Origin: Candidatus Parcubacteria bacterium
GTDB lineage: Bacteria > Patescibacteriota > Minisyncoccia > Phycocordibacterales > CAIZLB01
DNA: 64,000 bases
Assembly (NCBI GenBank): GCA_043760135.1
Contig: JAYUPL010000007.1
Location: 106-64,105 of the forward strand
Direction of reading: 5' to 3'
The position numbers and the translations under genes were made by a program. Below the pieces are notes generated by a model. The model worked only from the letters and a program-made list of their open reading frames with translations, was not told where the DNA came from and searched no databases. Shown in pieces: positions 3,473 to 53,615 of this stretch. Numbering within the stretch: the stretch's first letter is position 1; the number at the start of each line of letters is the position of its first letter.

Positions 3473-3721
3473 ATTTGACAATAAGGCTTGCTACAACTAT
3501 ACTAAAATCAGTTTTGAGACTTTAAAACTTCTCTAAGTGCAGAAATTCGGCTACTGCCACCTACTTCGTAAGAAGTTGTTGAGATGGGGATTACGTCGTT
3601 CCCTAGAGAAGTTTTAAGTTCTTAAGATAAATTTGACACTCAGATATTGATCATGATACATTTAAATTACTACTAATGACGCTAGATACCTTCTCTAGTT
3701 GGCTCACTGCCTCGATTGGTA

Positions 3722-4207
3722 CTATAGGCATACGGAAGGAACCCTACTTACAACGTTTCCTCTACCGAGGAGGCGTTTTAAGTTTTTCTCATTTAAAGAC
3801 CTAGTTTCAAAATAGGTAACAATGTAAAAACCGTTATCTCTGTTTGCTGCTAAGACTAAATAATTATTAGAATTTGGTACTAACTTTATAATATTAATTC
3901 TATCTACATTTTTATCAAAATTTAAAATAAGGTATTCCCACTTATGAGTGTTAATTATAATATTTTCAGCGCAGATGGGGCCGTGGTCAGATTCTATTTT
4001 GTCTACAATTTCTCTAGATAAGTGTAATGGTCTTTCTTTATTATCAAAGGATAAGTTACTGGATAGATAGCCGATTGTCTCTAGATTACTTTTATAACTT
4101 AAAAGCCTTTTTAGTTTTTTATTGTATCTTTCTTGCTTATTAGTTAAGTTAAATATTTGCTTCGATATAAATGCTGATTTTTTAAATTTTTGATTTTTAT
4201 TTTCCAT
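3722..4207 (-). CDS. hypothetical protein, copy A of a three-member ~160-aa paralogous family
   Basis: Aligns over full length with ORFs 35203-35730 and 44322-44801 (motifs 'RPLxLSRxIxxKIxxDHGxIC', 'NGFYIVTxFE', 'KNLKRLLGRGNV'). Confidence 0.5.
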   Translation of the reverse strand: MENKNQKFKKSAFISKQIFNLTNKQERYNKKLKRLLSYKSNLETIGYLSSNLSFDNKERPLHLSREIVDKIESDHGPICAENIIINTHKWEYLILNFDKNVDRINIIKLVPNSNNYLVLAANRDNGFYIVTYFETRSLNEKNLKRLLGRGNVVSRVPSVCL

Positions 4208-4269
4208 CCACCAATACTACCAATATCAACATCAAGAAAACTTAAAGAAATTCCAAAGAAAAGATCAAG

Positions 4270-10590: not shown

Positions 10591-10696
10591 TCTTCAGATT
10601 CATTAATTAAGAAAGAAAAATACTGCTCATTTGGGTAGTTTTTTTCTTGAGAGTTTCTTTATGGGAACTTTAGCTGTCTTTTATTATCATTGAAGA

Positions 10697-13000
10697 ATGA
10701 AAAAATATTTTGATCAGTGGAATAATAAAAAGAAATATATAGATAAAACTCCTAAAGATTTGATATTTAATGAAGGAGAGATTTGGTGGTCACATTTCGG
10801 TATAAATGTAGGCGAAGAGGCTTATGGGAAAGGTGGGTATTTTAGGAGACCTGTAGTTGTCTTAAAAAAGATATCACAAAACTCTTGCATAGTTGTGCCG
10901 ACAACCACAAAAATAAAAGAAGGTGAAAATTACTTCAAATTCACAACAAATGATCTAGAAAGAAGAGCTATGCTCTATCAGATAAAGTTTATTTCTGCAA
11001 AAAGATTGTATGTGAGAGAATCTGAGATGGAAAAAGAAGATTTCCTGAAATTAAAAAAATCCCTAGCAAACTTGCTAGAAATCTCTTCATGGTCACCGAG
11101 CGGACAAAAAGGACAATGCTCGGATCAGTGGGTTTCCCCTGGTATGAATCTATTTTATCAAACTCAAAATAATTGTCAAATTTCCAAGTTTTCACGTTCT
11201 GGAATCTGTGCTAAACTTCCATTTATGCAAACATCATTAGAACATAAAAGACATTCCTTGGCGCATGTATTAGCTGGAGCCATATTAAAATTATATCCAG
11301 ATGCTTTGATGACGATTGGTCCTGCTGTTGAAAATGGTTTTTATTATGATATTGATTTTCCAAGCGGATCACCAAAAGAGGAAGACTTTGAGAAAATTCA
11401 AAATGAGATGAAAAATGTTTTAAAAGCCTGGTCAACTTCAGAGCAGAGTTTTGTTCAACAAAAAGTTTCTAAAGAAGAGGCAGAAACTATTTTCAAAAAT
11501 AATTCATACAAGTTGGAACTGATCCAAGGTGTTGTTGATCGAGGTGAAGAAATAACTTTGTATGTTTCTGGGAAAGGTACAGAGTACGAATTTACTGATC
11601 TTTGTCGTGGGGGACATGTTGAGAACACAAAAGAGATTGATGAAGGTTCTTTTGCACTAGATAAGATTGCTGGAGCGTACTGGAGAGGTGATGAGAAAAA
11701 TAAGATGCTTGTGCGAATCTATGGACTTGCATTCGAAACAAAAGAAGAGTTGGATTTATTTATTCATAATAGAGAAGAGGCGAAGAAGAGGGATCATAGA
11801 AAATTAGGAAAGGAATTGAAGCTGTTTACTATTTCAGATTTAGTTGGTTCTGGGCTTCCTTTGTTTCAACCAAAGGGTGCCGTCTTGAGAGTGGAGCTAG
11901 AAAAATACTTGTGGTCAATGCATAAAGATAAGGGTTATCAAAGAGTTTGGACGCCACATCTAGCTAAAGCACAACTGTATGAAATATCAGGTCATGGACA
12001 ACATTACCTTGATGATATGTTTGCAGTGCATGGAGGAACTTCAAAAGAAGATTTTTATTTGAAGCCAATGAATTGTCCTCATCACTACCAATTATTTTTG
12101 GATAATCAATTCTCATATAGGGATATGCCAATCAAATATTTTGAACCGGCAACAATCTATCGTGATGAAAAAACAGGACAATTAGCAGGTCTAACTCGTG
12201 TTCGTTCAATCACTCAAGATGATGGGCATTTATTTTGTCGTTCAACTCAAATCAAGGAAGAGGTAAATATTATTGTAGACATTATCAAGCAATTCTATAC
12301 AACTATGAATATGATTGATGGGTATTGGGTACGACTTTCAACTCGAGGTGATGATAAGGATGTGTATCTTGGGTCTGATGAAGTGTGGGAGACTGCTGAA
12401 AGTGCGTTGAAGGATATTTGTAACGAAAATAATTTACCATACAAAGAGGGTAAAAATGAGGCAGCTTTTTATGGTCCAAAACTGGACTTTATGTTTAAGG
12501 ATGCGATTGGAAGAGAATGGCAATTGGCAACAATCCAGCTTGATTTCAATGCACCAGAAAGATTCAATCTTTCTTTTGTAAATGAAAAAGGTGAAGATGA
12601 AAGACCTGTGGTTATTCACCGTGCCATCTCTGGATCAATAGAAAGATTCTTAGGTGTTGCTATTGAGCACTTTGCTGGAGCGTTTCCGCTATGGCTTTCA
12701 CCTGTTCAATTAAAAATTGTTCCAATCGGTGAAAGACAAATAGACTTTGCACATGATTTATTTAAGAAAATAATGAAGACTGATATAAGAGTTGAGATCG
12801 ATCAAAGTAGTGAAGGACTTGGTAAAAAAGTTCGTGCATCTAAAGTTGAGAAAATTCCATACCTAGTTGTGGTAGGAGATAAAGAAATGGAATCAAATAC
12901 ATTTTCTCTTGAAGGAAGAAATGATGAGAAGATTACAGGGTTAAGTTATGATGACATGGTTAAGTTTTTACAAGATAAAATAGACAGTAAGGCTCTATAA
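10697..13000 (+). CDS. thrS: threonyl-tRNA synthetase carrying an in-frame N-terminal MazF/PemK-like domain (no TGS domain)
   Basis: Residues ~180-767 match ThrRS (editing-domain 'HSLAHVLAGAI...IGPAVENGFYYDIDFP', 'DHRKLGKEL', 'KPMNCPHHYQLF', 'RVRSITQDDGHLFC'). Residues ~1-130 match PemK/MazF ('GEIWWSHFGINVGEEAYGKGGYFRRPVVVLK') and are a paralogue of ORF 45002-45400. No stop codon lies between the two parts. Confidence 0.8.
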   Translation: MKKYFDQWNNKKKYIDKTPKDLIFNEGEIWWSHFGINVGEEAYGKGGYFRRPVVVLKKISQNSCIVVPTTTKIKEGENYFKFTTNDLERRAMLYQIKFISAKRLYVRESEMEKEDFLKLKKSLANLLEISSWSPSGQKGQCSDQWVSPGMNLFYQTQNNCQISKFSRSGICAKLPFMQTSLEHKRHSLAHVLAGAILKLYPDALMTIGPAVENGFYYDIDFPSGSPKEEDFEKIQNEMKNVLKAWSTSEQSFVQQKVSKEEAETIFKNNSYKLELIQGVVDRGEEITLYVSGKGTEYEFTDLCRGGHVENTKEIDEGSFALDKIAGAYWRGDEKNKMLVRIYGLAFETKEELDLFIHNREEAKKRDHRKLGKELKLFTISDLVGSGLPLFQPKGAVLRVELEKYLWSMHKDKGYQRVWTPHLAKAQLYEISGHGQHYLDDMFAVHGGTSKEDFYLKPMNCPHHYQLFLDNQFSYRDMPIKYFEPATIYRDEKTGQLAGLTRVRSITQDDGHLFCRSTQIKEEVNIIVDIIKQFYTTMNMIDGYWVRLSTRGDDKDVYLGSDEVWETAESALKDICNENNLPYKEGKNEAAFYGPKLDFMFKDAIGREWQLATIQLDFNAPERFNLSFVNEKGEDERPVVIHRAISGSIERFLGVAIEHFAGAFPLWLSPVQLKIVPIGERQIDFAHDLFKKIMKTDIRVEIDQSSEGLGKKVRASKVEKIPYLVVVGDKEMESNTFSLEGRNDEKITGLSYDDMVKFLQDKIDSKAL

Positions 13001-18301: not shown

Positions 18302-18635
18302 AGCCTTTGGTTTTCACGTTGGTTTATAAGGGGTTTTTTGACTTTTCCTAAATTTGCTTGTCCTTTATGAACATATTTGAATAATCCCCATATAATCGCT
18401 TGACTTTGTTTATGTTTCGTATATAATAGACACCCATACGGAATAGAAATATAACTCTCGAATCCTTGATGGATTCAAGAAAAATTTCTAAAGAAATATA
18501 CTTTGAAAATAGAATAAAGATATACATACATCACAATAGATATGTAAGAACATTGTATTGATTTTGTACAATGAGCAAGAATTAATTTTAAAATTAATCA
18601 AATCCTTTCTTTTGTTCTGTTTGAGTTTTTTATTT

Positions 18636-20160
<1,525 letters not shown>

Positions 20161-20532: not shown

Positions 20533-20608
20533 GCGCGCGTAGCTCAGTTGGTAGAGCGCTCGACTGATACTCGAAAGGTCCTTGGTTCAACTCCAAGCGC
20601 GCGCACCA
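20533..20608 (+). tRNA. tRNA-Ile (anticodon GAT) in the 16S-downstream spacer
   Basis: Acceptor GCGCGCG/CGCGCGC, D-arm TAGCTCAGTTGGTAGAGC, anticodon loop CTGATAC, CCA encoded. Confidence 0.8.
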
Positions 20609-20776
20609 CAAGGGTAATTCTATAATTCTAAAGAATTATATGTCGCACAAAAGGCACTTCTATTTTGATAAATCAAAATATGTCGCGCACCAGTAAAAAT
20701 AAAAATAAATCTCCGAAAGGGGATTTATTTTTTTATTTGACATCAAAACCCTACCTCTGATATACTTCAATCATCG

Positions 20777-20872
20777 GAAGCAACTCCTTATACAGGCAAG
20801 TCTGTATCGGGAATTTCCTTAGAATTGGAAGCAACCCCTTGTATAGTTTCGTCTGTATCGGGGATTTCCCTT
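20777..20872. repeat. two tandem ~48-bp imperfect direct repeats
   Basis: 'GGAAGCAACTCCTTATACAGGCAAGTCTGTATCGGGAATTTCC' and 'GGAAGCAACCCCTTGTATAGTTTCGTCTGTATCGGGGATTTCC'; would encode an 'EIPDTD' repeat on the minus strand. Confidence 0.45.
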
Positions 20873-21346
20873 GTATTAAGAAGGTCTATGATGTCAGACA
20901 TGTATATTATTTCTAAATACAGCCGATCTTTAAACATCATCGATGTATTCTTAGGATGAACACTAAAGCATCTCAATATTTCTAGTTTAGATTTTGCATA
21001 ATCGAGTAATGATGTAAAATCACCATCACCTGAAGTGAGGTACGATAGCCTGAACTTTATTTTTTTCTATATCAAGGGTAATTTTGTGAGCTATCTCAAC
21101 GTCACAATTGGCCTTTATTTTATTCTTTTCTCTATAGCTTTGTTTAAAAACAATTTCTACATCATTTTCATACAAACCTACATATAATTGCTCATGTTCT
21201 TCAAACCGAGCGGTGAAATATATTATTTTATCAGCTCTGTATTTATTTTTAAGATAAATAATTAATTCGACCATATCAAAATTCAGTCCTTGATCTCGAG
21301 CACTCAGTATAATATTGGCAGCGTCTATGTATATATTTGTTTTCAT
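20788..21346 (-). pseudogene. NYN-domain (LabA/PIN-like) protein gene interrupted by a frameshift
   Basis: ORF 21026-21346 has N-terminal 'IYIDAANI'; the hallmark 'SGDGDFTSLLDYAK' motif continues in another frame just past its stop and joins ORF 20788-20976. Confidence 0.45.
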
Positions 21347-28150: not shown

Positions 28151-30676
28151 ATGAAAATATTTAATAATCTTAAGTGTATAGTGTTGGTATTTTTGATTAT
28201 GTTTTCTCATGTAGTTTTCGCCGCCAACCCACCTTATCCTTTTCTACCATCAGACAATGTACAAGATCCAAACTGTACACCGCTGGACTCTAACTGTTAT
28301 GTTCTTTTAACATCTTTTCAGAATGAAACAGTGACAGGACTCGACTATGCAACTTCGACTGGAATACTTTCTTTAACTTCAGGCTACAATATACCACTTA
28401 CTGCGTCGACTACTGCGTGGAATAGTGCTATCGGAGCACTAGGAGGAAGTGCACTTTTGCAAAATGGTAATTCATTTGGTACAACGCTCACACTTGGAAC
28501 AAATGACAATCAAGCTTTGAGTTTTGAGACAAATGGTATTAACAGACTCACTATCGACACATCAGGAAATATCACTGCTACAGGAACCATCACAGCGAGT
28601 TCATTTTTTGGTAATGGCTCAAACTTGACTGGTATATTTTCAACATCAACGACAAGAGGTGTTTTCTCGGCGTCTGGTCCTATTTCGTATTCAACTTCGA
28701 CTGGAAATTTTTTAATAACTCAAGCTTCGTCAACTTCAAGTGGATATCTTTCTTCAGCTGACTTTACAACTTTCCAAGCCAAAGAAGACGTCATCACTGC
28801 GTCCACCACGGCAACATACTTCCGAGGTGACAAAACCTTCAGTACTCTCGACACCTCGGCTGTTCCTGAGAATGGAAATCTCTACTTCACAAATGCTCGT
28901 GTGAATTCAATCTTGTCAGCAACAACTTCACTTCCAAACATCACCACACTCTCAGGACTCATTTCTGCAACAAACCTAGGTTCATTGGGTACGACTACAA
29001 TCGGAGTGTGGAATGCCACTCCGATTGGAGACTCATACATCACAAAGACTGGAAACTGGACAGGAATATTCGATGGACAAGAAGGAACATATTATTTGGA
29101 CAGAGCAAATCACACAGGCACACAGTTGGCTTCAACTATTTTGGATTTCGGAACTACTACAAGAAACTTACTTTCATCCACTGCAACAGGACTAACATAT
29201 TCGACCTCAACTGGAATATTTTCTTTAACTTCAGGTTACAATATACCTTTGACCGCCTCAACTACTGCATGGAATGCAAAAGTCTCAAGTCAATGGGTGA
29301 CGAGTGGTGTAAATATATATTATACAGGTGTGGCTGTTGGTATTGGGACAACAACACCAAGCAATAAATTTGTTGTAGTAGGAACGTCAACAGTTATTGG
29401 AAATTTTAACCTCAATGGTTATGTGTTGCAGGGTTCGTCAAATGGTTCACTGTTTGGGAATACAGTTAGTAATGGTATTTATGATTCCAACTTCCTTGGT
29501 GCCTATGCGGGAAATGGTGCTACAAGTACCAGTTACTCCAACTTCCTTGGTGCCTCTGCGGGACATAGTGCTACAAATGCCAGCTACTCCAACTTCCTTG
29601 GTTACTATGCGGGATATAGTGCTACAAATGCCAACCAATCCAACTTTCTTGGTTACGGTACGGGATATAGTGCTACAAATGCCAACAACTCCAACTTCCT
29701 TGGTTACTATGCGGGATATAGTGCTACAAATGCAGCTTCCTCCATATTCTTTGGGAAGAATTCTGGTTATTCTGACACTGTGAATAACACTTCTGGAAAC
29801 AAATACTCAATACTTATAGGAAACTACACCTCAACTGGTGGTTTTTCCAACTCGATATCAATAGGACAAGGTGTGGCCAACTCAGAAATTGATCAACTAA
29901 ACATTGGTCGTATTATCTATGCTACCAAAATAGGCTCATCAACCTCATCTATCTCTTCACCTTATGCCTCAGCTTCTGTCGGTATAGGAACATCTACTCC
30001 AGCCGATAAGCTTCAAGTCTATGGTGACATACGTGTAGGAACCACAGGAACAAACGGTTGTATCAAAGATTTTGGAGGAACAGGTATCACAGGAGTATGT
30101 TCATCAGATGAAAGATTGAAAACAAATGTTGTAGATTTATCAGATAATTATCTTGATAAAATGGCTAAACTTAGAGTAATATCATATAACTGGAATGATA
30201 CTGCTAAAGATTTAAACAAAGTCAATACGACTGCTACAAACTACGGACTATTGGCGCAAAATGTAGAAGAAAATTTTCCAGAATTAGTCACAATAGATTC
30301 CAATGGATATAAGCAAGTTAATTATTCACGATTACCATTATATTTAATAAAATCAATACAAGAATTGTCAAAAAAGTTTTTGTCATTTGCTGATTCTGTT
30401 ACAACTAAAGAATTAAAAACCAATAAGCTATGTGTTGATGATATTTGTGTTACAAAAGATCAGTTTAAGATGATGTTACAAAACAGTAATGTATCTCCAG
30501 TTATATATCAACAATCAGTCTCAATTCCTGCCCCAGTCCAAAATCCAGAACCTGTTGTTGAGCAAGCAATAACAACTGAAGTTGTGGCCGAAATTGCTGT
30601 ACCGATACCTGTGGTTGAGACTGCTCCTGAACCTATTGTTGTACCAGTTGTGACAGAAAATCAGTTAGTACAATAG
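28151..30676 (+). CDS. phage-tail-fibre-like secreted surface protein with C-terminal intramolecular-chaperone (peptidase S74) domain
   Basis: Signal peptide, S/T/G/N-rich repeats, five tandem 'SNFLGYYAGYSATNAN' repeats; C-terminal 'SDERLKTNVVDLSDNYLDKMAKLRVISYNWND...YGLLAQNVEENFPELVTIDSNGYKQVNYSRLPLYLIKSIQEL' matches S74 autochaperone domains; Pro-rich tail. Confidence 0.6.
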   Translation: MKIFNNLKCIVLVFLIMFSHVVFAANPPYPFLPSDNVQDPNCTPLDSNCYVLLTSFQNETVTGLDYATSTGILSLTSGYNIPLTASTTAWNSAIGALGGSALLQNGNSFGTTLTLGTNDNQALSFETNGINRLTIDTSGNITATGTITASSFFGNGSNLTGIFSTSTTRGVFSASGPISYSTSTGNFLITQASSTSSGYLSSADFTTFQAKEDVITASTTATYFRGDKTFSTLDTSAVPENGNLYFTNARVNSILSATTSLPNITTLSGLISATNLGSLGTTTIGVWNATPIGDSYITKTGNWTGIFDGQEGTYYLDRANHTGTQLASTILDFGTTTRNLLSSTATGLTYSTSTGIFSLTSGYNIPLTASTTAWNAKVSSQWVTSGVNIYYTGVAVGIGTTTPSNKFVVVGTSTVIGNFNLNGYVLQGSSNGSLFGNTVSNGIYDSNFLGAYAGNGATSTSYSNFLGASAGHSATNASYSNFLGYYAGYSATNANQSNFLGYGTGYSATNANNSNFLGYYAGYSATNAASSIFFGKNSGYSDTVNNTSGNKYSILIGNYTSTGGFSNSISIGQGVANSEIDQLNIGRIIYATKIGSSTSSISSPYASASVGIGTSTPADKLQVYGDIRVGTTGTNGCIKDFGGTGITGVCSSDERLKTNVVDLSDNYLDKMAKLRVISYNWNDTAKDLNKVNTTATNYGLLAQNVEENFPELVTIDSNGYKQVNYSRLPLYLIKSIQELSKKFLSFADSVTTKELKTNKLCVDDICVTKDQFKMMLQNSNVSPVIYQQSVSIPAPVQNPEPVVEQAITTEVVAEIAVPIPVVETAPEPIVVPVVTENQLVQ
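29485..29760 (+). repeat. five tandem 51-bp in-frame coding repeats (17-aa units)
   Basis: 'TCCAACTTCCTTGGTTACTATGCGGGATATAGTGCTACAAATGCCAAC...' repeated with minor variation. Confidence 0.75.
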
Positions 30677-30742
30677 TTCACTGCGTGATAGAAGTTTTTT
30701 CTATTGCCATTTTACCTGAAAAATGATATACATATACACTAT

Positions 30743-31408
30743 ATGACATCACAAAACGACACGATAAAAGACATGTTTGAAGCAGGGGTTCACTATGGAA
30801 CTCTGCGCGCATCTCGAAATCCATCTGTTAAAAAATACGTTTATGGAACAAAAGGAACCGTTGATATTATTAATGTTGAAATTACAGCTGATCAAATCGA
30901 AAAAGCTCGCATCTTCATTGCTGATCTTAAGGCAAACGGTAAAGTTATTCTTTTTGCCACAAGTAAAAGTGAAGTAGTTGATCTTGTAAAAGATTCTGCT
31001 ATCAGATTCAACTCACCATTCATCGCAGGACGATGGGTTGGAGGACTATTCACAAACTTTGAAATCATCAGAAAAAGAATCAATCGTATGATTGATCTTG
31101 TTTCAATGAAAGAAAAAGGTGAATTAAAAAAATATACTAAAAAAGAGCAATCATTGATGGATAAAGAAGTTGAAAGACTTGAAAAACTATTCTCAGGTGT
31201 AAAAGAGTTAACTTCACTACCAGCAGCATTACTTGTTGTTGATCCTAAGAAAGAATTTATCGCCGTAGAAGAAGCTCGTATGCTTGGTATACCTGTTATT
31301 GCTATTGCCAACACAGATTGTAAAGTTTCAACTATCGATTTCCCAATCGTTGCAAATGACTCATCAAGATCTTCAGTTGATTACATCTTGCATCAATTGT
31401 TAGGCTAA
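30743..31408 (+). CDS. rpsB: 30S ribosomal protein S2
   Basis: 'MFEAGVHYGTLRASRNPSV', 'GRWVGGLFTNFEII'; start taken at the internal Met; tsf follows. Confidence 0.85.
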   Translation: MTSQNDTIKDMFEAGVHYGTLRASRNPSVKKYVYGTKGTVDIINVEITADQIEKARIFIADLKANGKVILFATSKSEVVDLVKDSAIRFNSPFIAGRWVGGLFTNFEIIRKRINRMIDLVSMKEKGELKKYTKKEQSLMDKEVERLEKLFSGVKELTSLPAALLVVDPKKEFIAVEEARMLGIPVIAIANTDCKVSTIDFPIVANDSSRSSVDYILHQLLG

Positions 31409-34656: not shown

Positions 34657-34804
34657 AATTGTATGGTGTTCGTTGTTTATTTACTCAAATTAAAACAGTG
34701 TATATATTATATCAATATTAGATATATTTGTCAAGTATGGACATTCCACTATCAAAAAATGGTATAATTATAATTATTAATAAATAAATAATAAAAATAA
34801 ACAT

Positions 34805-35143: not shown

Positions 35144-35202
35144 ATTCAGGTTTTCTTTAGAACTTCTTAATCAAAACTTTACCACCTCTCTGGTAAAGTT
35201 TT

Positions 35203-35730
35203 TTGATGGAATACAGAAAACCTAAAAAATCACTTTTTATATCAAAACAAATTAGAAATTTAAATAGTGAGGAAAAGATATATCTCGAGAATTTAAAAAA
35301 AGTTTTAAACAAAGAAAGTGATATTGAAACCATTGGGAATATTCCGGGTTATTTATGTTTTGATAAAAAAGAAAGACCCTTAATTTTATCTCGAGAGATT
35401 GTCGATAAGATAGAAAATGATCATGGTTCAATTTGCTCTCAAAATATGATTATTAACATTTTTGAATGGGAATATGCAACTACTAATGTATTAGGTAATC
35501 CTGATAAAATAAATCTTATTAAAAATATACCCGATTCTGATAATTATCTCTTAGTGGCAGCTGTTAGGATTAATGGCTTTTTTGTACTTACTCATTTTGA
35601 AATTGAAGCTAAAAATGGTAACAATTTAAAACGCCTCCTCGACAGAGGGAGCGTTTTAAATAGGGTCTCTTCTATAGCCTGTACTACCAATCAAGACTTG
35701 AATTCAAGTCAATCTAGAGAAGTTGTCTAG
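35203..35730 (+). CDS. hypothetical protein, copy B of the ~160-aa paralogous family (C-terminally extended)
   Basis: Full-length alignment to copies A and C. Confidence 0.5.
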   Translation: MMEYRKPKKSLFISKQIRNLNSEEKIYLENLKKVLNKESDIETIGNIPGYLCFDKKERPLILSREIVDKIENDHGSICSQNMIINIFEWEYATTNVLGNPDKINLIKNIPDSDNYLLVAAVRINGFFVLTHFEIEAKNGNNLKRLLDRGSVLNRVSSIACTTNQDLNSSQSREVV

Positions 35731-35833
35731 CGTCAAAGGTAATGGTTGTATTTTAGCAAAAGTTTGATTTATGTCAAATAATACACAAGTATTTCCTTTT
35801 GACTTTTTACCTCAAATAATATAGGTTTTATAT

Positions 35834-43820: not shown

Positions 43821-44276
43821 ATGAATTACTGGCTCATGAAATCTGAAGGAGATTGCTATCCTATCGAACAACTTAAAAAAGATAAAGTCACTCCATGGGG
43901 CGGTGTGCGCAACTATCAAGCACGAAACTACATGAAAGAGATGGAAGTTGGAGATATGGTTTTATTCTATCATTCAAGTTCAAAACCCACTGGAGTATTT
44001 GGATTGGCAAAAGTTGTAAAAACTGCACATCCTGATCTGACCGCTTTTGATAAAAGAGATGATCATTATGATGAACGATCAACAGTAGAAAAACCCATCT
44101 GGGAATGTGTTGATGTACAGTATGTTTCAACATTTAAAGAACCTATCACATTAGATGAAATGAAAAGATATCGAGAGTTAAGCACAATGAAATTATTTCA
44201 AAAAGGATCAAGATTGTCAGTTATTCCAGTGACTGAGAAGGAGTACAATTTTATTGTTTCTTTGGGGAAAGTTTAG
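43821..44276 (+). CDS. EVE (PUA-like) domain protein
   Basis: 'MNYWLMKSEG...GGVRNYQARNYMKEMEVGDMVLFYHSS...GVFGLAKVV'. Confidence 0.7.
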   Translation: MNYWLMKSEGDCYPIEQLKKDKVTPWGGVRNYQARNYMKEMEVGDMVLFYHSSSKPTGVFGLAKVVKTAHPDLTAFDKRDDHYDERSTVEKPIWECVDVQYVSTFKEPITLDEMKRYRELSTMKLFQKGSRLSVIPVTEKEYNFIVSLGKV

Positions 44277-44321
44277 AATTTCTTTATGAGAACTTTATGT
44301 TGGTTTTGGTATTATTTTTGA

Positions 44322-44801
44322 ATGCTAATCGAAAAACCAAAAAAGCCTGCATTTATCCACGGACCTATCCTACCTCTGAATAAAAGAGAGGAGATGTACT
44401 TGTGGAAAATAAAAAATATTATCAAATATAAAAGCACTCATGAAAATATTGGGTATGTACCCGAATCTTTATCAAAGGACGCTAAAGTCAGACCCCTTAT
44501 TTTATCTCGAAGTATATTACATAAAATTCAATCTGATCATGGACATATTTGTCCAGAAAACATGATTATCAATGCACATCGGTGGGATTATATCGTTTCG
44601 TATCCATATAACAATGTAGACAAGATTGTGCTGGTAAAGAATATACCGAATAGTCGCAATTATTTTGTGTTAGCAGCTAACAGAAATAATGGTTTTTATA
44701 TTGTGACACATTTCGAAGTCGAAGCGATGACTGGAAAAAACTTAAAACGTCTCCTCGGTAGAGGAAACGTTTTAAGTAGGGGGCCTTCTATATGCCTATA
44801 G
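44322..44801 (+). CDS. hypothetical protein, copy C of the ~160-aa paralogous family
   Basis: Full-length alignment to copies A and B; 200 bp upstream of the MazF-like gene. Confidence 0.5.
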   Translation: MLIEKPKKPAFIHGPILPLNKREEMYLWKIKNIIKYKSTHENIGYVPESLSKDAKVRPLILSRSILHKIQSDHGHICPENMIINAHRWDYIVSYPYNNVDKIVLVKNIPNSRNYFVLAANRNNGFYIVTHFEVEAMTGKNLKRLLGRGNVLSRGPSICL

Positions 44802-45001
44802 TACCGATCTGAGACTTTTTCAAGTCAGTATGAGAAGGTGTCATGTGTCATCGGTAATGGTTGTATTATACGCTTGGGTAAACCAAAGTCAAATTGTAGA
44901 ATATTTTGATCATTTCAATGAAATATAATTTTATTTTTTCTTTGGTAAAACTTTAAAATCTCTTTATCAGAACTTTATCGGTATTTTTATAAAATTGATG
45001 G

Positions 45002-45400
45002 ATGAATAACAAAAACTATGATGAATGGAATATATTAAAGAAAAGAATAAATAAATTATATAAAACCAAACATCCAAAAATAAGAGAAGTTTGGTGGGTA
45101 AATATCGGTTTGAATATAGGCTCTGAAATATATGGAAAGGGTTCAAAATATTTAAGACCTGTATTGGTGTTAAAGGTAAATGATGAAAGTTTTTTAGGTA
45201 TACCATTATCATCAAAATTAAGGAAAAGCAAACAAAGATTCATTTTGAAAACAAATGATCAGAAGCTTCATTCCTTGGTTTTTAATCAAATTAAGATTTT
45301 GGACAACAGGAGATTGTTGAGTAAGAAGTATATTATTTCAAAAAATAAATTTAGGAAAATAATCCGTAAATTTAAAAATACGATAACCGTCAATGGTTAG
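45002..45400 (+). CDS. MazF/PemK-family toxin-like protein
   Basis: 'REVWWVNIGLNIGSEIYGKGSKYLRPVLVLK' matches the MazF/PemK core; paralogue of the ThrRS N-terminal domain. Confidence 0.65.
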   Translation: MNNKNYDEWNILKKRINKLYKTKHPKIREVWWVNIGLNIGSEIYGKGSKYLRPVLVLKVNDESFLGIPLSSKLRKSKQRFILKTNDQKLHSLVFNQIKILDNRRLLSKKYIISKNKFRKIIRKFKNTITVNG

Positions 45401-45502
45401 TTGACGGTTATCCGGCCCGAAGGCTGAGGAGCATAAGCTCAACTCGTACCTTCATTGTATCAAATTATCTTTTGCTGTCAAATTTGGTATAATACTCATC
45501 AT

Positions 45503-46426
45503 ATGTCAGAACACACATCCTTATATAGAAAATATCGCCCCTCTAATTTCTCTGAAGTTCTAGGTCAAGATCATATTATTTCTGTATTACAAAAAGCTAT
45601 TGAAAGTAAAAATCCAAACCATGCCTACATCTTTACTGGTTCAAGAGGTATTGGAAAAACTTCTATTGCTCGTATCTTTGCTCGAGAGTTAGGGGTTAAT
45701 GAAGCTGATATTTATGAGATTGATTCAGCATCGTATACTGGAGTTGATAATATTAGAGAGCTTATCGAAAGTGCCACGGTACTTCCGATGCAATCACCAT
45801 ACAAAGTGTACATACTCGATGAGGTTCACATGCTTTCGAAGAATGCTTTTAATGCATTTCTTAAGGGATTGGAAGAGCCACCAAAGCATGTGATTTATAT
45901 ATTGGCGACAACAGAATTAAATAAATTATTAGATACAATTATTTCTCGCTGCGAAGTTCATAATTTTAAAAAGCCGAGTATCGAGATACTGTCTCAAGTT
46001 GTTTCGGACGTTGTCAAGAAAGAAGGGTTATCTATAGATGATGAATCGACAAAATTGATAGCCATGAGCGGGGATGAATCTTTTAGAGATACATTGTCTG
46101 TTTTGCAAAAAGTTATCGCATCTATTGGAAGTAAGAAAATAGAGAACATAGAACATATTTTAAATATTCCGGATATATCTTTGATCGAAGAGATTATAGA
46201 AAAGAATATAAAAGGGGAGGCAGTGTTTGAAAATATTGATAAACTAAAACAAAATAATGCTGATGGAAAAATCGTGTATGATTTGTTTATGGATAGATTA
46301 CGATCAAAATTGAGAGAGGGAAAAGATAAAGAAAAAGTTCTGAGCTTGTTTACTAAGGCATTGGAAAATTATCGACATGTAAGGTTTGTGGATGCGTTTT
46401 TGGTGTTGGAGGTGGTGTGTGGATAA
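45503..46426 (+). CDS. dnaX: DNA polymerase III clamp-loader subunit (gamma/tau-like, or delta')
   Basis: 'YRPSNFSEVLGQDHI', Walker A 'GSRGIGKTSIAR', 'ILDEVHML', 'SRC'; short (307 aa); -10 TATAAT 9 nt before ATG. Confidence 0.6.
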   Translation: MSEHTSLYRKYRPSNFSEVLGQDHIISVLQKAIESKNPNHAYIFTGSRGIGKTSIARIFARELGVNEADIYEIDSASYTGVDNIRELIESATVLPMQSPYKVYILDEVHMLSKNAFNAFLKGLEEPPKHVIYILATTELNKLLDTIISRCEVHNFKKPSIEILSQVVSDVVKKEGLSIDDESTKLIAMSGDESFRDTLSVLQKVIASIGSKKIENIEHILNIPDISLIEEIIEKNIKGEAVFENIDKLKQNNADGKIVYDLFMDRLRSKLREGKDKEKVLSLFTKALENYRHVRFVDAFLVLEVVCG

Positions 46427-49133: not shown

Positions 49134-50006
49134 TTATAGTCTCATTTCCTTCTTCGGAAACATTTGAGACAATATAACCGCTGTGAAAATTATTCCAAAA
49201 AGCACAGCCAAAGATATTGCTGAGCTAATATGAATATGGAAAATTCCAAGCATCATTTTCCCTCCAATAAAAAATAGGATGATTGCCAAAGCCTTCGTAA
49301 TAAGATGAAATTTATGAAGTATATATTCAACAACGAAGAACAATGACCGTAGACCTAAAAGAGCAAAAGCATTTGCAGTAAAGATCACAAATCTATTTTG
49401 ACTAATAGCAAACGAAGCGGGGATAGAATCAACGGCAAAAATAATATCAGAAAATTCTATCATCAAGAGACATAGGAAGAGATTGGTGATGTGAAATTTC
49501 TTGTTAATCGTAATAAAAAACTTCTTGCCATGATGTCCATCAGCAATTGGTAAAACTTTGTTTAAAAATTTTAGTATTTTATTTGTATCTAAATTTTTAT
49601 CTTTCTCATTTTTCTCTTTTAATATTTGAATACCAGTGTAAATAAGAAGTGCACCAAAAAGATACAATACCCATTCAAATCTTTGTACGATTTCAAATCC
49701 TAACCCTATAAAAATGGCACGAAATACAAATGCCCCCATAATTCCTAAAAATAATACTCGATGCTGATATTTTTCCTCAACTTTAAAATAAGAGAATATT
49801 AAAAGCATGATAAAGAGGTTATCAATAGAGAGCATGTATTCAGTTATATACACAGAGAACCATTGAAACCCAATCTCGGCACCGCGAGTAAAGTAGACAT
49901 AGATACCAAAAGCAACAGCGGTCATCACCCACATTAAGGTCAGTAAAATAGATTTTTTTATTTTGTTCATTGGTATATTAAAACATGTTTGAAGTGGATT
50001 TGACAA
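49134..50006 (-). CDS. TerC-family integral membrane protein
   Basis: Multi-TM; 'LSIDNLFIMLLIF' TerC-like motif. Confidence 0.5.
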   Translation of the reverse strand: MSNPLQTCFNIPMNKIKKSILLTLMWVMTAVAFGIYVYFTRGAEIGFQWFSVYITEYMLSIDNLFIMLLIFSYFKVEEKYQHRVLFLGIMGAFVFRAIFIGLGFEIVQRFEWVLYLFGALLIYTGIQILKEKNEKDKNLDTNKILKFLNKVLPIADGHHGKKFFITINKKFHITNLFLCLLMIEFSDIIFAVDSIPASFAISQNRFVIFTANAFALLGLRSLFFVVEYILHKFHLITKALAIILFFIGGKMMLGIFHIHISSAISLAVLFGIIFTAVILSQMFPKKEMRL

Positions 50007-50158
50007 ACTTTAACAACTTGCTAAAATAAATATGTAATCTGAAGGACAGAAAATTAACAATCGGCTTGCTGCGGACTTCGCTGAAAATGCTTAGTACTTA
50101 TGGATGAAATGTTCTCATTTTTAATAAATGATCCCTGCCGTCATCCCAGACTACAATT

Positions 50159-50190
50159 AAAAACACCACCGGTTATCCGGTGGTGTTTTT
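50159..50190. terminator. rho-independent terminator overlapping the 3' end of ORF 50173-50505
   Basis: 'AAAAACACCACCGG ttat CCGGTGGTGTTTTT' perfect hairpin. Confidence 0.6.
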
Positions 50191-50505
50191 AATTTTCTTA
50201 TAATGCATTGTCACTATTTCAAGATGATCTTCGGTATGTTCGAGCACTATTCTGATTATCGGTATGGATCTTATGCTTTCAGAAAAATCTTTTGAAAAAT
50301 AAAGCCTATTACTATTTGTTTCCAACGAATTATAATTACTTAGAACATTTTCAATGTTGTCGATAATTAAATAAAGCCTTCCTAAAATATATTCATTTTC
50401 AGATCCAACTAATTCTCCAGACCTGCTCTCAACAAAATGCTTCAAGGCCCTCTTGGAAATATATACATCTTTGTCCTCCAGTCCGCATACAAACACCAAT
50501 CCCAA
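50173..50505 (-). CDS. hypothetical protein (110 aa)
   Basis: ORF track only. Confidence 0.35.
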   Translation of the reverse strand: MGLVFVCGLEDKDVYISKRALKHFVESRSGELVGSENEYILGRLYLIIDNIENVLSNYNSLETNSNRLYFSKDFSESIRSIPIIRIVLEHTEDHLEIVTMHYKKIKNTTG

Positions 50506-50716
50506 AAAATCTGCAATTAATTCACCTTTTTTAGATGGAAATATTCGTTAACTAGTTTTTTAATTGTAATTATATTTGTGTTAATTCTTCAATTTTACAA
50601 AACCACCCATAAACTCCCCATAAAGAAAAACCGAAGATTTCCACAAGAAAAGATGAAGAAAGGTAAAACCAGCCTCAAATTTTGCATTTTCTCAAAAAAT
50701 ATGTCAAAATGGTGCG

Positions 50717-53268: not shown

Positions 53269-53615
53269 ATAATTTCAGTATTTCTTAATAATTTCAATAT
53301 CTACCTAGATAACATATAAAGAAAAAAGGTCGTCATCCTAACGGTCGACGCCTTTTTTCAAACTAGCCTTAGTTATTATAATATCAAAAAAATATTTTAT
53401 GTTAAATCTGCTAAAACATAAAATAAAAATACTCAACTAAGAGTATCTTTATCCATGCGACCGGCGCCAGCTTGTGAAGATGAGGATTGTTTAAATCCGG
53501 CGGTCTAACGGACCTTTTTCTCTTCAGCTTGTTACGCTATATATTATACTTGTGGAGAAAGGTAAGTCAAATACCATTCATAAACCCTCAAAACTGTGTT
53601 ATACTGCAAATAATT

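What the first reader, a model, noticed from the sequence alone, without database searches (positions are those of the whole stretch)
45002..45400. Orphan MazF/PemK-like toxin gene without a recognisable antitoxin
The 132-aa protein has a MazF/PemK core. No MazE/PemI-like small ORF (RHH, AbrB or SpoVT fold) lies upstream; the 200-bp upstream gap holds only the shared promoter motif and a questionable 32-codon ORF. The next upstream gene is copy C of the unknown ~160-aa family. Either the unknown family is a non-canonical antitoxin partner, or the MazF-like proteins here are not active toxins.
Basis: partly seen in the sequence, partly recalled or inferred. Interest (0 to 1): 0.55.

Follow-up and report, generated by a model that had tools for sequence, protein, structure and literature searches.

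The report
MazF-like toxin with antisense RNA partner
This RNA-cutting toxin gene really does lack the usual protein antidote, but it is most likely held in check by a short RNA made from the opposite DNA strand at the gene's end, a design repeated at five or more other toxin-like genes in this small-genome bacterium.

Summary
45002-45400 encodes a 132-aa MazF/PemK-fold protein with the catalytic Arg and Ser/Thr conserved, and neither this genome nor its relatives has a protein antitoxin gene beside it.

The 159-aa family is not a partner. It occurs without MazF, MazF occurs without it, the two replace each other in the same EVE-dnaX slot, and it looks like a divergent PBECR2-type nuclease.

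There is a near-consensus promoter at 45481->45454 (TTGACA-16-TACAAT, TG-extended) and an intrinsic terminator at 45412->45382, over the stop codon. Together they define a convergent antisense RNA of about 75 nt with three stem-loops.

The same unit follows all six cassettes in the window. It follows 13 of 20 distinct MazF-like loci elsewhere, against none on the sense strand and 4.5% of random windows. The terminator stem covaries.

A 46%-identical homologue on Campylobacter jejuni pVir has a published 77-nt convergent sRNA, CJpv3, at the same place.

Best reading: a type I-like toxin-antitoxin module with an RNase toxin. The RNA is predicted here, and its antitoxin role is inferred.

The parts
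44937..44978 (+). Shared upstream motif of the MazF1 cassette (TTTCTTTGGTAAAACTTTAAAATCTCTTTATCAGAACTTTAT). It carries CTTTA-type repeats about 11 bp apart. It is either a candidate common operator or part of the promoter.
   Evidence: The same block precedes MazF2, the three 159-aa genes, the 110-aa gene, and MazF homologues in L002-L004.
44990..44995 (+). Probable -10 box (TAAAAT) of the sense promoter, 6 nt before the ATG. This implies a leaderless toxin mRNA (inference).
   Evidence: Read. It aligns with the TG-extended TATTAT before the 159-aa gene.
45002..45400 (+). MazF1: a 132-aa MazF/PemK-fold endoribonuclease homologue with a conserved N-terminal helix (W9, N10, K13). R52, S70 and E42 are equivalent to the MazF active-site residues.
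45382..45412 (-). Intrinsic terminator of the antisense RNA: a 12-bp stem GATAACCGTCAA/TTGACGGTTATC, then GTATTTTTAA. It overlaps the MazF1 stop codon and last codons. No U-tract follows it on the sense strand.
   Evidence: Covariation: 99.4% of cells paired, 17 double changes against 5.7 in shuffles, 0 of 500 shuffles as high.
45372..45447 (-). Predicted antisense sRNA of about 75 nt. It has SL1, SL2 (GCC-UUCG-GGC) and the SL3 terminator plus U-tract. It is complementary to the last ~9 codons and ~47 nt of 3' flank of MazF1.
   Evidence: MFE -28.5 kcal/mol, z -4.98; covariance model hit at 45371-45451, minus strand, 95.7 bits.
45454..45481 (-). Antisense promoter TTGACA-16-TACAAT with a TG extension (11 of 12). 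Its -35 box is the 'TGTCAAAT' found at the 3' edge of every cassette.
44322..44801 (+). 159-aa gene (copy C): an independent cassette encoding a likely divergent PBECR2-type nuclease. It is not a MazF partner.
44732..44892 (-). Antisense unit of the 159-aa gene: promoter 44892->44865 (TTGACT-16-TATAAT, 11 of 12), and a 17-bp terminator 44777->44740 plus TTTTTT inside the 3' coding end. The predicted RNA is about 125 nt.
   Evidence: z -5.33.
10643..11179 (+). MazF2 cassette. It comprises the shared 5' motif (10643-10701) and a MazF-like ORF from 10697, with homology ending near 11095 and no stop codon before ThrRS. On the minus strand it has the hairpin CTAGCAAACTTGCTAG (11063-11078) plus a U-tract, and the promoter 11179->11152 (TTGACA-16-TAAAAT, TG, 11 of 12).
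3633..4261 (-). 159-aa copy A cassette: 5' motif 4261->4203, ORF 3722-4207(-), antisense promoter 3633-3662(+) (10 of 12, TG), antisense terminator 3752-3777(+).
35152..35777 (+). 159-aa copy B cassette: 5' motif 35152-35210, ORF 35203-35730, antisense promoter 35777->35750 (11 of 12, TG), weak antisense terminator 35648->35634.
50000..50639 (-). 110-aa gene cassette: 5' motif 50639->50581, ORF 50173-50505(-), antisense promoter 50000-50027(+) (11 of 12, TG), and an 18-bp two-way terminator 50155-50194 over the stop codon. The protein has no assigned family.

Best explanation
MazF1 is a probably active MazF-family endoribonuclease toxin. It belongs to a large, stand-alone subfamily that carries an N-terminal helix. 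Its antidote is most likely not a protein. It is most likely a cis-antisense small RNA of about 75 nt, transcribed convergently from a strong promoter just past the 3' end of the gene and terminated over the stop codon.

Proposed mechanism, step by step:
1. The toxin mRNA starts at or next to its ATG, from a weak promoter with an extended -10 box and a motif shared by all cassettes. This step is inferred.
2. The mRNA has no terminator of its own, so it runs through the region that encodes the sRNA. This is shown by the sequence.
3. The abundant sRNA pairs perfectly with the mRNA's last ~9 codons and 3' flank, and convergent transcription may add interference. This is inferred.
4. The duplex triggers mRNA decay, as in Bacillus txpA/RatA and bsrG/SR4, and keeps the toxin off. 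If the module is lost or the RNA falls, the RNase accumulates. This step is inferred by analogy and is not shown.

The window holds at least six such one-gene modules (two MazF-like, three PBECR2-like, one unknown). They behave as exchangeable cassettes.
For: **Antisense promoter and terminator at MazF1.** The best promoter-like site in 44200-45560 is on the minus strand: 45481->45454, TTGACA-16-TACAAT, TG-extended, 11 of 12. A 12-bp hairpin followed by a T-tract lies on the same strand, over the stop codon.

**Same unit at all six cassettes**. Only 10 sites score >=11 of 12 in the whole 64 kb, against 3.45 expected. Five of them are these promoters. Another lies 200 bp before the 16S gene, which suggests the organism uses this consensus.

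**Conserved across relatives.** In 20 distinct MazF-like loci, 13 have a >=10 of 12 antisense promoter within 115 nt after the stop, and none has one on the sense strand. Random windows give 4.5% (binomial P about 2e-13, but the loci are not independent). The -35 box sits 73-85 nt after the stop.

**RNA structure.**
- Each RNA folds into three stem-loops, with z-scores from -3.4 to -5.7.
- The terminator stem is 99.4% paired and has four pairs with compensatory changes. No shuffle out of 500 reaches the observed covariation score.

**Strand cues.**
- The U-tract is present only on the antisense strand.
- SL2 reads as UUCG, UCCG, GAAA or GUAA only on the antisense strand.
- There are 9 G-U cells on the antisense strand, which would be A-C mismatches on the sense strand, against 1 the other way.

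**Specificity.** A covariance model hits only the 3' ends of MazF genes, on the minus strand.

**Experimental precedent.**
- C. jejuni 81-176 pVir gene CJJ81176_pVir0047 (30634-31038) is 46% identical to MazF1, E 1e-25.
- It has an antisense transcription start at 31119 with step height 16164, against 28 for its own mRNA.
- It also has a 77-nt sRNA, CJpv3 (31119->31043), detected by Northern blot (PMC3656092, Tables S5 and S12).
- The promoter scan places a -10 box 7 nt before that mapped start.
- CJpv3 also folds into three stem-loops.

**Toxin competence.** The MazF fold and the R/S(T)/E residues are conserved.

**No protein partner** was found.
Against: - There is no transcript data for this organism. 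The RNA is predicted from sequence only.
- Neither the toxicity of MazF1 nor any effect of the RNA on it has been tested.
- Pairing is at the 3' end. How it would silence a leaderless mRNA depends on duplex-triggered decay, and I did not check whether RNase III is encoded.
- The gene is syntenic and apparently inherited vertically next to dnaX in several Parcubacteria. That would also fit a housekeeping RNase.
- The crude scan found no comparable antisense promoter or terminator after homologues on Nitratiruptor and Helicobacter suis plasmids, or at L005, L007 and L030. Epsilonproteobacterial promoters lack a -35 box, which weakens this negative.
- I could not verify that the published pVir type I pair cjrA/cjpT corresponds to CJpv3/pVir0047.
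- Only 64 kb of the genome is visible, so a protein antitoxin encoded elsewhere cannot be excluded.
Confidence: 0.55

Rival explanations
1. The antisense RNA is real, but MazF1 is a domesticated RNase with a housekeeping or regulatory role, not a growth-arresting toxin. The RNA only tunes its level, or limits read-through into dnaX.
For: The position between EVE and dnaX is conserved across several Parcubacteria genomes, at 56-85% protein identity. There are several paralogues per genome. The sense strand has no terminator, so the transcript reads into dnaX or ThrRS. An antisense RNA that fine-tunes the type II mazEF locus is published (PMC8749433, listed).
Against: Occupancy of the slot varies: MazF only, the 159-aa gene only, or both, and L017 holds a decayed MazF 3' remnant. 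That looks like turnover of an accessory gene. Relatives sit on conjugative and small plasmids. The same architecture serves unrelated nuclease-like genes.
Confidence: 0.2
2. No antitoxin is needed. The toxin is kept silent by transcriptional repression through the shared upstream motif, by a regulator encoded elsewhere. Alternatively it is self-inhibited by its conserved N-terminal helix.
For: A motif of about 45 bp with 11-bp-spaced CTTTA repeats precedes all six cassettes and MazF homologues in three other genomes. The N-terminal helix with invariant W9, N10 and K13 is a hallmark of the subfamily and is absent from canonical MazF.
Against: Neither idea explains the conserved, structured, convergent promoter-terminator unit at the 3' end. 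The motif is limited to this lineage, while the 3' unit is also seen in distant relatives. No regulator was identified. The position of the helix relative to the RNA groove was not analysed.
Confidence: 0.1
3. The RNA neutralises the protein directly, in the type III manner of ToxIN and CptIN, rather than acting on the mRNA.
For: Type III toxins share the MazF/Kid-like fold, and CptN appears among the structural matches (rank 39, E 1.6e-4). The RNA is highly structured and its promoter is strong.
Against: The defining type III layout is absent. There is no tandem repeat array upstream on the toxin strand. The RNA is encoded antisense and is perfectly complementary to the toxin mRNA.
Confidence: 0.08
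4. A protein antitoxin exists. It is either the neighbouring 159-aa protein, or a MazE-like gene elsewhere in the genome.
For: The 159-aa gene lies directly upstream here and in L017. Only 64 kb of the genome is visible.
Against: The 159-aa gene and the MazF gene occur independently and replace one another in the same slot. The 159-aa family resembles PBECR2 nucleases and has its own antisense unit. MazF homologues stand alone in all contexts examined.
Confidence: 0.07

Closest known systems
Campylobacter jejuni 81-176 plasmid pVir: CJJ81176_pVir0047 with the sRNA CJpv3 (Dugar et al. 2013, PMC3656092)
   Same: - Same MazF-like subfamily: 46% identity, with the N-terminal FDEWN..KK helix and the GSE, RPVLV and PLSSK motifs.
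- The gene stands alone.
- A convergent sRNA of 77 nt starts about 80 nt after the stop and ends at the stop codon. It has three stem-loops and is far more abundant than the mRNA.
   Different: - It is carried on a plasmid in an epsilonproteobacterium.
- Its mRNA has a 26-nt leader.
- The sRNA ends 5 nt after the stop, whereas here it overlaps about 27 nt of coding sequence.
- No functional link between CJpv3 and pVir0047 could be verified in the papers I could read.
cjrA/cjpT type I toxin-antitoxin pair of pVir (Shen et al. 2016, Mol Microbiol 101:909; cited in PMC7826846 and PMC10470494)
   Same: An experimentally validated antisense-RNA antitoxin with a protein toxin, on the same plasmid that carries the MazF1 homologue.
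   Different: The paper is not held in the library, so I could not establish whether cjpT is pVir0047. CJpv2 with pVir0033 or pVir0034 is an alternative. If cjpT is pVir0047, the mechanism proposed here is already demonstrated for a close relative.
Type I systems with 3'-overlapping convergent RNAs (Bacillus subtilis txpA/RatA, bsrG/SR4; from my own knowledge)
   Same: The toxin mRNA and a short antisense RNA are transcribed toward each other and overlap at their 3' ends. The RNA has its own strong promoter and terminator. It acts on the mRNA, not on the protein.
   Different: Those toxins are small hydrophobic membrane peptides. Here the toxin is a 132-aa soluble RNase-fold protein.
Canonical type II MazEF (B. 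subtilis EndoA/EndoAI, S. aureus and E. coli MazEF)
   Same: The toxin fold and the catalytic Arg, Thr/Ser and Glu positions.
   Different: There is no upstream, co-transcribed MazE/AbrB/RHH antitoxin gene. There is an extra N-terminal helix of about 25 residues. Sequence identity to solved MazF proteins is only 15-20%.
Type III ToxIN / CptIN / TenpIN
   Same: An RNA antidote for a MazF/Kid-like RNase toxin (CptN match).
   Different: Type III antitoxins are tandem repeats upstream on the same strand, and the toxin itself processes them. No repeats are present here and the RNA is antisense.

Membership tests
MazF/PemK toxin family (Pfam PF02452) | Profile match above the curated threshold | tested here: met
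   32.7 bits against a cut-off of 23.1, E 9.1e-08. A family profile hits B. subtilis EndoA at E 2.2e-07.
MazF/PemK toxin family (Pfam PF02452) | MazF/Kid/CcdB-type SH3-like barrel fold | tested here: met
   The AF2 model (pLDDT 77.5) matches MazF structures: 75 chains at E<=0.001, query-normalised TM up to 0.67.
MazF/PemK toxin family (Pfam PF02452) | Catalytic Arg and Thr/Ser (B. subtilis MazF R25 and T48, from my own knowledge) plus the loop Glu | tested here: met
   R52, S70 and E42 align to R25, T48 and E20. R52 and E42 are invariant and S/T70 is >=90% conserved.
MazF/PemK toxin family (Pfam PF02452) | Sequence-specific endoribonuclease activity and growth arrest | not testable with these tools
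   Needs expression and cleavage assays.
Type II MazEF toxin-antitoxin operon | Adjacent, co-transcribed protein antitoxin (MazE/AbrB, RHH, SpoVT and similar) | tested here: not met
   There is no conserved ORF in the gap or downstream. Neighbours are EVE, the 159-aa gene and dnaX. Homologues stand alone in other genomes.
Type I toxin-antitoxin system | A cis-encoded antisense RNA gene overlapping the toxin transcript | tested here: met
   Met at sequence level only. There is a promoter, three stem-loops and a terminator on the opposite strand. The unit is conserved, covaries, and lies at the position of a mapped sRNA in a homologue.
Type I toxin-antitoxin system | The RNA is expressed and represses toxin synthesis | not testable with these tools
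   No transcriptome exists for this lineage. Expression is shown only for the C. jejuni homologue.
Type I toxin-antitoxin system | Toxin is a small (<60 aa) hydrophobic peptide, the usual though not universal case | tested here: not met
   The toxin is a 132-aa soluble RNase-fold protein.
Type III toxin-antitoxin system (ToxIN-like) | Tandem direct repeats that encode the RNA antitoxin, upstream of the toxin on the same strand | tested here: not met
   Tandem Repeats Finder gives no rows for 44200-45600, and no repeat family lies there.
PBECR2 nuclease family (PF18810), considered for the 159-aa neighbour | Profile match above the curated threshold | tested here: inconclusive
   16 of 29 members hit PBECR2, but below threshold (best E 3.2e-4), and the window's copy C does not hit at all. 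The AF2 model (pLDDT 82) has no significant PDB match.

The most novel reading that the evidence does not exclude
'Orphan' MazF genes of this subfamily number about 1,750 clusters at 50% identity (E<=1e-10) across many bacteria, and all are annotated as type II toxins. Under this reading they are in general type I-like systems whose antitoxin is a 3'-convergent antisense sRNA. In CPR bacteria the same RNA-antidote architecture, with a common leaderless promoter or operator, has been extended to a set of unrelated nuclease toxins (MazF-like, PBECR2-like, possibly NYN-like). These form swappable one-gene cassettes inserted in front of essential genes.
Probability: 0.35. Interest if true: 0.75.

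Novelty: new variant of a known kind. Interest (0 to 1): 0.6.

Why it matters
Solitary toxin genes are usually dismissed as decayed or misannotated type II systems. Here the missing partner appears to be an unannotated RNA gene on the other strand.

If that holds, several things follow:
- It gives a testable rule for a very large 'orphan MazF' subfamily that NCBI currently names as type II.
- It shows that antisense-RNA control is not restricted to small membrane peptides and can govern enzyme toxins.
- It reveals a coordinated set of RNase-toxin cassettes in candidate phyla radiation (CPR) bacteria, which cannot be cultured and whose regulation is almost unknown.
- It explains the odd 'MazF fused to a housekeeping enzyme' gene calls found in databases.

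Tried and rejected
**Small ORFs as antitoxin.** The 32-codon ORF 44830-44928 is not conserved in frame or start codon. The minus-strand 34-codon ORF 45338-45442 is not conserved in frame between relatives either.

**The 159-aa protein as antitoxin.** Rejected on independent occurrence and its nuclease-like profile.

**'GTCAAAT' as a recombination site.**
- I first read the repeated 'GTCAAATT' at the cassette edges as a target-site duplication, an integron attC core, or an IS200/IS605-type target.
- No conserved inverse core or terminal inverted repeat was seen by eye.
- The motif is not enriched in the window: 21 observed against 18 expected.
- It turned out to be the -35 box (TTGACA) of the antisense promoter.
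- Recombination at this shared sequence may still explain cassette exchange.

**Known RNAs in the flanks.** I considered an SRP RNA upstream of dnaX and a T-box leader upstream of ThrRS. Rfam gives nothing at gathering thresholds and only chance-level hits at E<=10.

**Defence-system membership.** There are no PADLOC hits.

**Direct sequence search of solved structures.** The single protein finds nothing. The family profile was needed.

**Searches that gave little.**
- The metagenome scan returned only 3 loci.
- The covariance model did not reach divergent family members.

**Literature.** The Shen et al. 2016 paper is not held. Searches for cjpT and for the pVir locus tags did not resolve which gene cjpT is.

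**Other plasmid homologues.** The promoter and terminator scan was uninformative for the Nitratiruptor and H. suis homologues.
Full report
**Setting.** The window has 36% G+C and comes from a Candidatus Parcubacteria / Paceibacteria genome. This follows from the record titles of near-identical and related contigs. The flagged ORF lies in the gene order enolase - Dus - 229-aa gene - EVE-domain gene - 159-aa gene - MazF-like gene - dnaX - RNase J.

**Checking the observation.**
- ORF 45002-45400 encodes 132 aa and matches Pfam PemK_toxin above the curated threshold (32.7 bits against 23.1).
- The protein has 36 homologous clusters, mostly 132-133 aa and from Parcubacteria.
- A profile built from them finds 3,162 clusters at 50% identity with E<=0.001, and 1,748 with E<=1e-10. 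Most of the 150 best listed cover nearly the whole protein, including the N-terminal ~25 residues.
- So this is a large, distinct MazF subfamily with a conserved N-terminal helix. W9, N10 and K13 are invariant.
- The AlphaFold2 model (pLDDT 77.5) matches solved MazF proteins best.
- In profile alignments to B. subtilis MazF/EndoA, R52, S70 and E42 fall on R25, T48 and E20. The catalytic roles of those residues are from my own knowledge of the MazF literature. R52 and E42 are invariant in the family and S/T70 nearly so.
- The protein therefore has what an active MazF needs.

**No protein antitoxin.**
- The upstream gap holds no conserved ORF. The 32-codon ORF is frame-shifted in L017, lacks its ATG in L015, and overlies a decayed remnant of the longer C-terminus seen in some 159-aa family members.
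- The 100-bp downstream gap has no ORF, and gene callers annotate nothing there.
- Homologues stand alone in Parcubacteria, in a Campylobacter lanienae chromosome, and on C. jejuni, Helicobacter suis and Nitratiruptor plasmids.
- The one tightly adjacent upstream gene, in L009, is the end of a GDP-mannose dehydratase.

**The 159-aa family is not the partner.**
- It has three copies in the window, and only one is next to a MazF gene.
- Homologues elsewhere have no MazF nearby.
- In relatives, the slot between EVE and dnaX holds MazF alone (L003, L004), the 159-aa gene alone (L015, L016), or both (window, L017).
- L017 additionally keeps the decayed 3' end of another MazF gene between the two.
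- Sixteen of 29 family members give sub-threshold matches to the PBECR2 nuclease family (best E 3.2e-4).
- The AF2 model is confident (pLDDT 82) but has no significant PDB match.
- The family looks like a second, unrelated nuclease toxin rather than an antitoxin.

**A common cassette design.**
- Both MazF-like genes, the three 159-aa genes and a 110-aa gene (50173-50505, minus strand) share an upstream block: TTTCTTTAGAATTTCTTTATGAGAACTTTA, then about 10 nt, then a TG-extended -10 box.
- In five of the six cassettes the ATG follows the -10 box after about 6 nt. The 110-aa gene has no ATG at that position, and its ORF starts about 75 nt further on.
- That spacing implies leaderless mRNAs. This is an inference.
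- Every cassette also ends with 'TGTCAAAT' 73-88 nt after the stop in most loci. In the 110-aa cassette it lies about 170 nt after the stop.
- An empty-site comparison between L015 and the window shows a 589-bp MazF segment bounded by this 8-bp sequence.
- I first took the sequence for a recombination site. The motif is not enriched elsewhere in the window.

**The key result.**
- 'TGTCAA' is the reverse complement of TTGACA. On the minus strand, 45481->45454 reads TTGACA-16-TACAAT with a TG extension (11 of 12). This is the best promoter-like site in the region.
- On the same strand, 45412->45382 is a 12-bp hairpin followed by GTATTTTTAA, lying over the MazF stop codon.
- No U-tract follows the hairpin on the sense strand.
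- Together these define a convergent RNA of about 75 nt (about 45447->45372). It is complementary to the last ~9 codons and to 47 nt of 3' flank of the toxin transcript.
- The same pair of signals follows the 159-aa gene (promoter 44892->44865, 17-bp terminator 44777->44740) and each of the other four cassettes.
- The whole 64-kb window has only ten sites scoring >=11 of 12, against 3.45 expected. Five are these promoters. One more sits 200 bp before the 16S gene, which suggests the organism uses this consensus.

**Conservation and structure.**
- Among 20 distinct MazF-like loci, 13 have a >=10 of 12 antisense promoter within 115 nt after the stop. None has one on the sense strand, and 4.5% of random windows do. 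The loci are not fully independent.
- Twelve Parcubacteria copies align into an RNA with a variable SL1, an invariant SL2 (GCC-UUCG-GGC) and the terminator SL3.
- SL3 is 99.4% paired. It has 17 doubly changed cells against 5.7 in shuffles, and no shuffle out of 500 reaches the covariation score. Slid controls pair at most 54%.
- Individual RNAs, including divergent ones (L025, L027, MazF2), fold into the same three-hairpin plan, with z-scores from -2.75 (MazF2) to -5.7.
- Three features point to the antisense strand. The U-tract is there. SL2 loops read UUCG, UCCG, GAAA or GUAA only there. Nine G-U cells there would be mismatches on the sense strand, against one the other way.
- A covariance model hits only the 3' ends of MazF genes, on the minus strand.
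- No Rfam family matches.
- The small ORFs within the RNA are not conserved in frame.

**Experimental anchor.**
- The subfamily occurs on C. jejuni 81-176 plasmid pVir.
- CJJ81176_pVir0047 (30634-31038, 134 aa) is 46% identical to MazF1 (E 1e-25).
- The primary transcriptome of Dugar et al. (PMC3656092) lists an antisense start at 31119 on the minus strand with step height 16164, against 28 for the gene's own start.
- It also lists a 77-nt sRNA, CJpv3 (31119->31043), detected by Northern blot.
- I located the published sequence upstream of that start in the plasmid. It places the start 81 nt after the stop codon.
- The same promoter scan used here finds a TG-extended TATAAT ending 7 nt before that mapped start. 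This serves as a positive control for the method.
- CJpv3 folds into three stem-loops.
- pVir also carries a validated type I pair, cjrA/cjpT (Shen et al. 2016, cited). I could not establish whether that pair is CJpv3/pVir0047.

**Interpretation.**
- The anatomy is that of a type I toxin-antitoxin module with 3'-overlapping convergent transcripts, like B. subtilis txpA/RatA or bsrG/SR4 (my own knowledge), but with a MazF-fold RNase as the toxin.
- Shown: the toxin fold and residues, the absence of a protein partner, the antisense promoter-terminator unit, its conservation and covariation, and expression of the equivalent RNA in one homologue.
- Inferred: that the RNA is made here, that it lowers toxin mRNA or translation, and that MazF1 is toxic.
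- Rivals: a domesticated RNase merely tuned by the RNA; repression through the shared 5' motif or self-inhibition by the N-terminal helix; direct RNA-protein neutralisation; a protein antitoxin elsewhere.

**Membership.**
- It is a member of the MazF/PemK family, since all testable features are met.
- It is not a type II MazEF operon, since the adjacent antitoxin is absent.
- It works like a type I system but departs from the usual small-peptide toxin.
- It lacks the repeat array that defines type III systems.

**Novelty and interest.**
- Type I control and the CJpv3 RNA are known.
- Three things appear to be new: linking this RNA class to a large 'orphan MazF' subfamily, finding it in CPR bacteria, and finding the same design on PBECR2-like and other cassettes that share one promoter motif and swap within a slot.
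- I rate it a new variant of a known kind. It would drop to a new member if cjpT proves to be pVir0047.

Noticed in passing
window 10697-13000 (+): The second MazF-like gene has no stop codon and runs in frame, through a 45-codon Cys/Trp/Gln-rich linker, into threonyl-tRNA synthetase. ThrRS probably starts at ATG 11226, lacks the TGS domain, and has its own TG-extended -10 box 7 nt upstream. Gene callers report a 767-aa PemK-ThrRS fusion. Database 'fusions' of this MazF subfamily to F420 ligase, RuvC, cytidylyltransferases, GNAT and YdjC may arise in the same way.
   Followed up: partly
window 21026-21343 (-) and 20737-20766 (+): A 105-aa ORF gives a weak NYN ribonuclease hit (E 4e-4, 21.3 bits against a cut-off of 24.2) and has a weak copy of the shared 5' motif. 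An 11 of 12 TG-extended promoter about 260 nt past its stop points back at it. This may be a seventh module of the same design.
   Followed up: partly
window 34706-34734 (-), 53543-53570 (-), 3475-3503 (+): Three more near-consensus promoters (12, 11 and 11 of 12) are not assigned to any cassette. The one at 3475 lies a further 160 nt downstream of 159-aa copy A and points toward it. It could be a remnant of a lost cassette, as seen in L017 and L011.
   Followed up: no
L017 2784-2864 (-), between the 159-aa gene and MazF: A 123-bp insert relative to the window holds the last codons of a different MazF allele (…RKFKNMITADY) together with its complete antisense RNA unit (89 bits to the covariance model). 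This is evidence of cassette loss and replacement in this slot.
   Followed up: yes
window 44740-44777 and 45372-45398: The most conserved C-terminal peptide motifs of both families are encoded by the antisense terminator stems and U-tracts. These are NLKRLLGRGNV.SR in the 159-aa family and KFKNMIT in MazF. Part of their protein conservation may therefore be RNA-level constraint.
   Followed up: partly
window 45485-45505 and 11200-11228: dnaX and ThrRS also have a TG-extended -10 box 7-9 nt before their ATG and no Shine-Dalgarno sequence. Leaderless mRNAs may be common in this organism. The dnaX -10 box abuts the -35 box of the MazF1 antisense promoter, back to back.
   Followed up: no
window 18629-20150, 20533-20608: The 16S rRNA gene is followed by tRNA-Ile, but no 23S gene appears in the window. 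The next features are 51-nt direct repeats (20773-20874) and the NYN-like ORF. The rRNA operon seems to be split.
   Followed up: no
window 43821-44276 (+): An EVE-domain (PUA-like) gene, E 2e-53, is the conserved upstream neighbour of the variable toxin slot in all relatives. In genomes with the 159-aa cassette, its last codons are altered (…SLGKV against …SL), because the cassette's 5' motif joins it at a TTTCTTTG microhomology.
   Followed up: partly
window 28334-29770: The 841-aa ORF contains 51-nt tandem repeats (five copies, 29435-29770) and dispersed 33-90-nt repeats. They are unrelated to the finding.
   Followed up: no
L035 (C. jejuni pVir) 29076, 30011, 31257 and others: Several small pVir paralogues (0013, 0035, 0044, 0046, 0048) share an almost identical promoter sequence in the published table of transcription starts. 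This parallels the shared promoter of the cassettes here.
   Followed up: no
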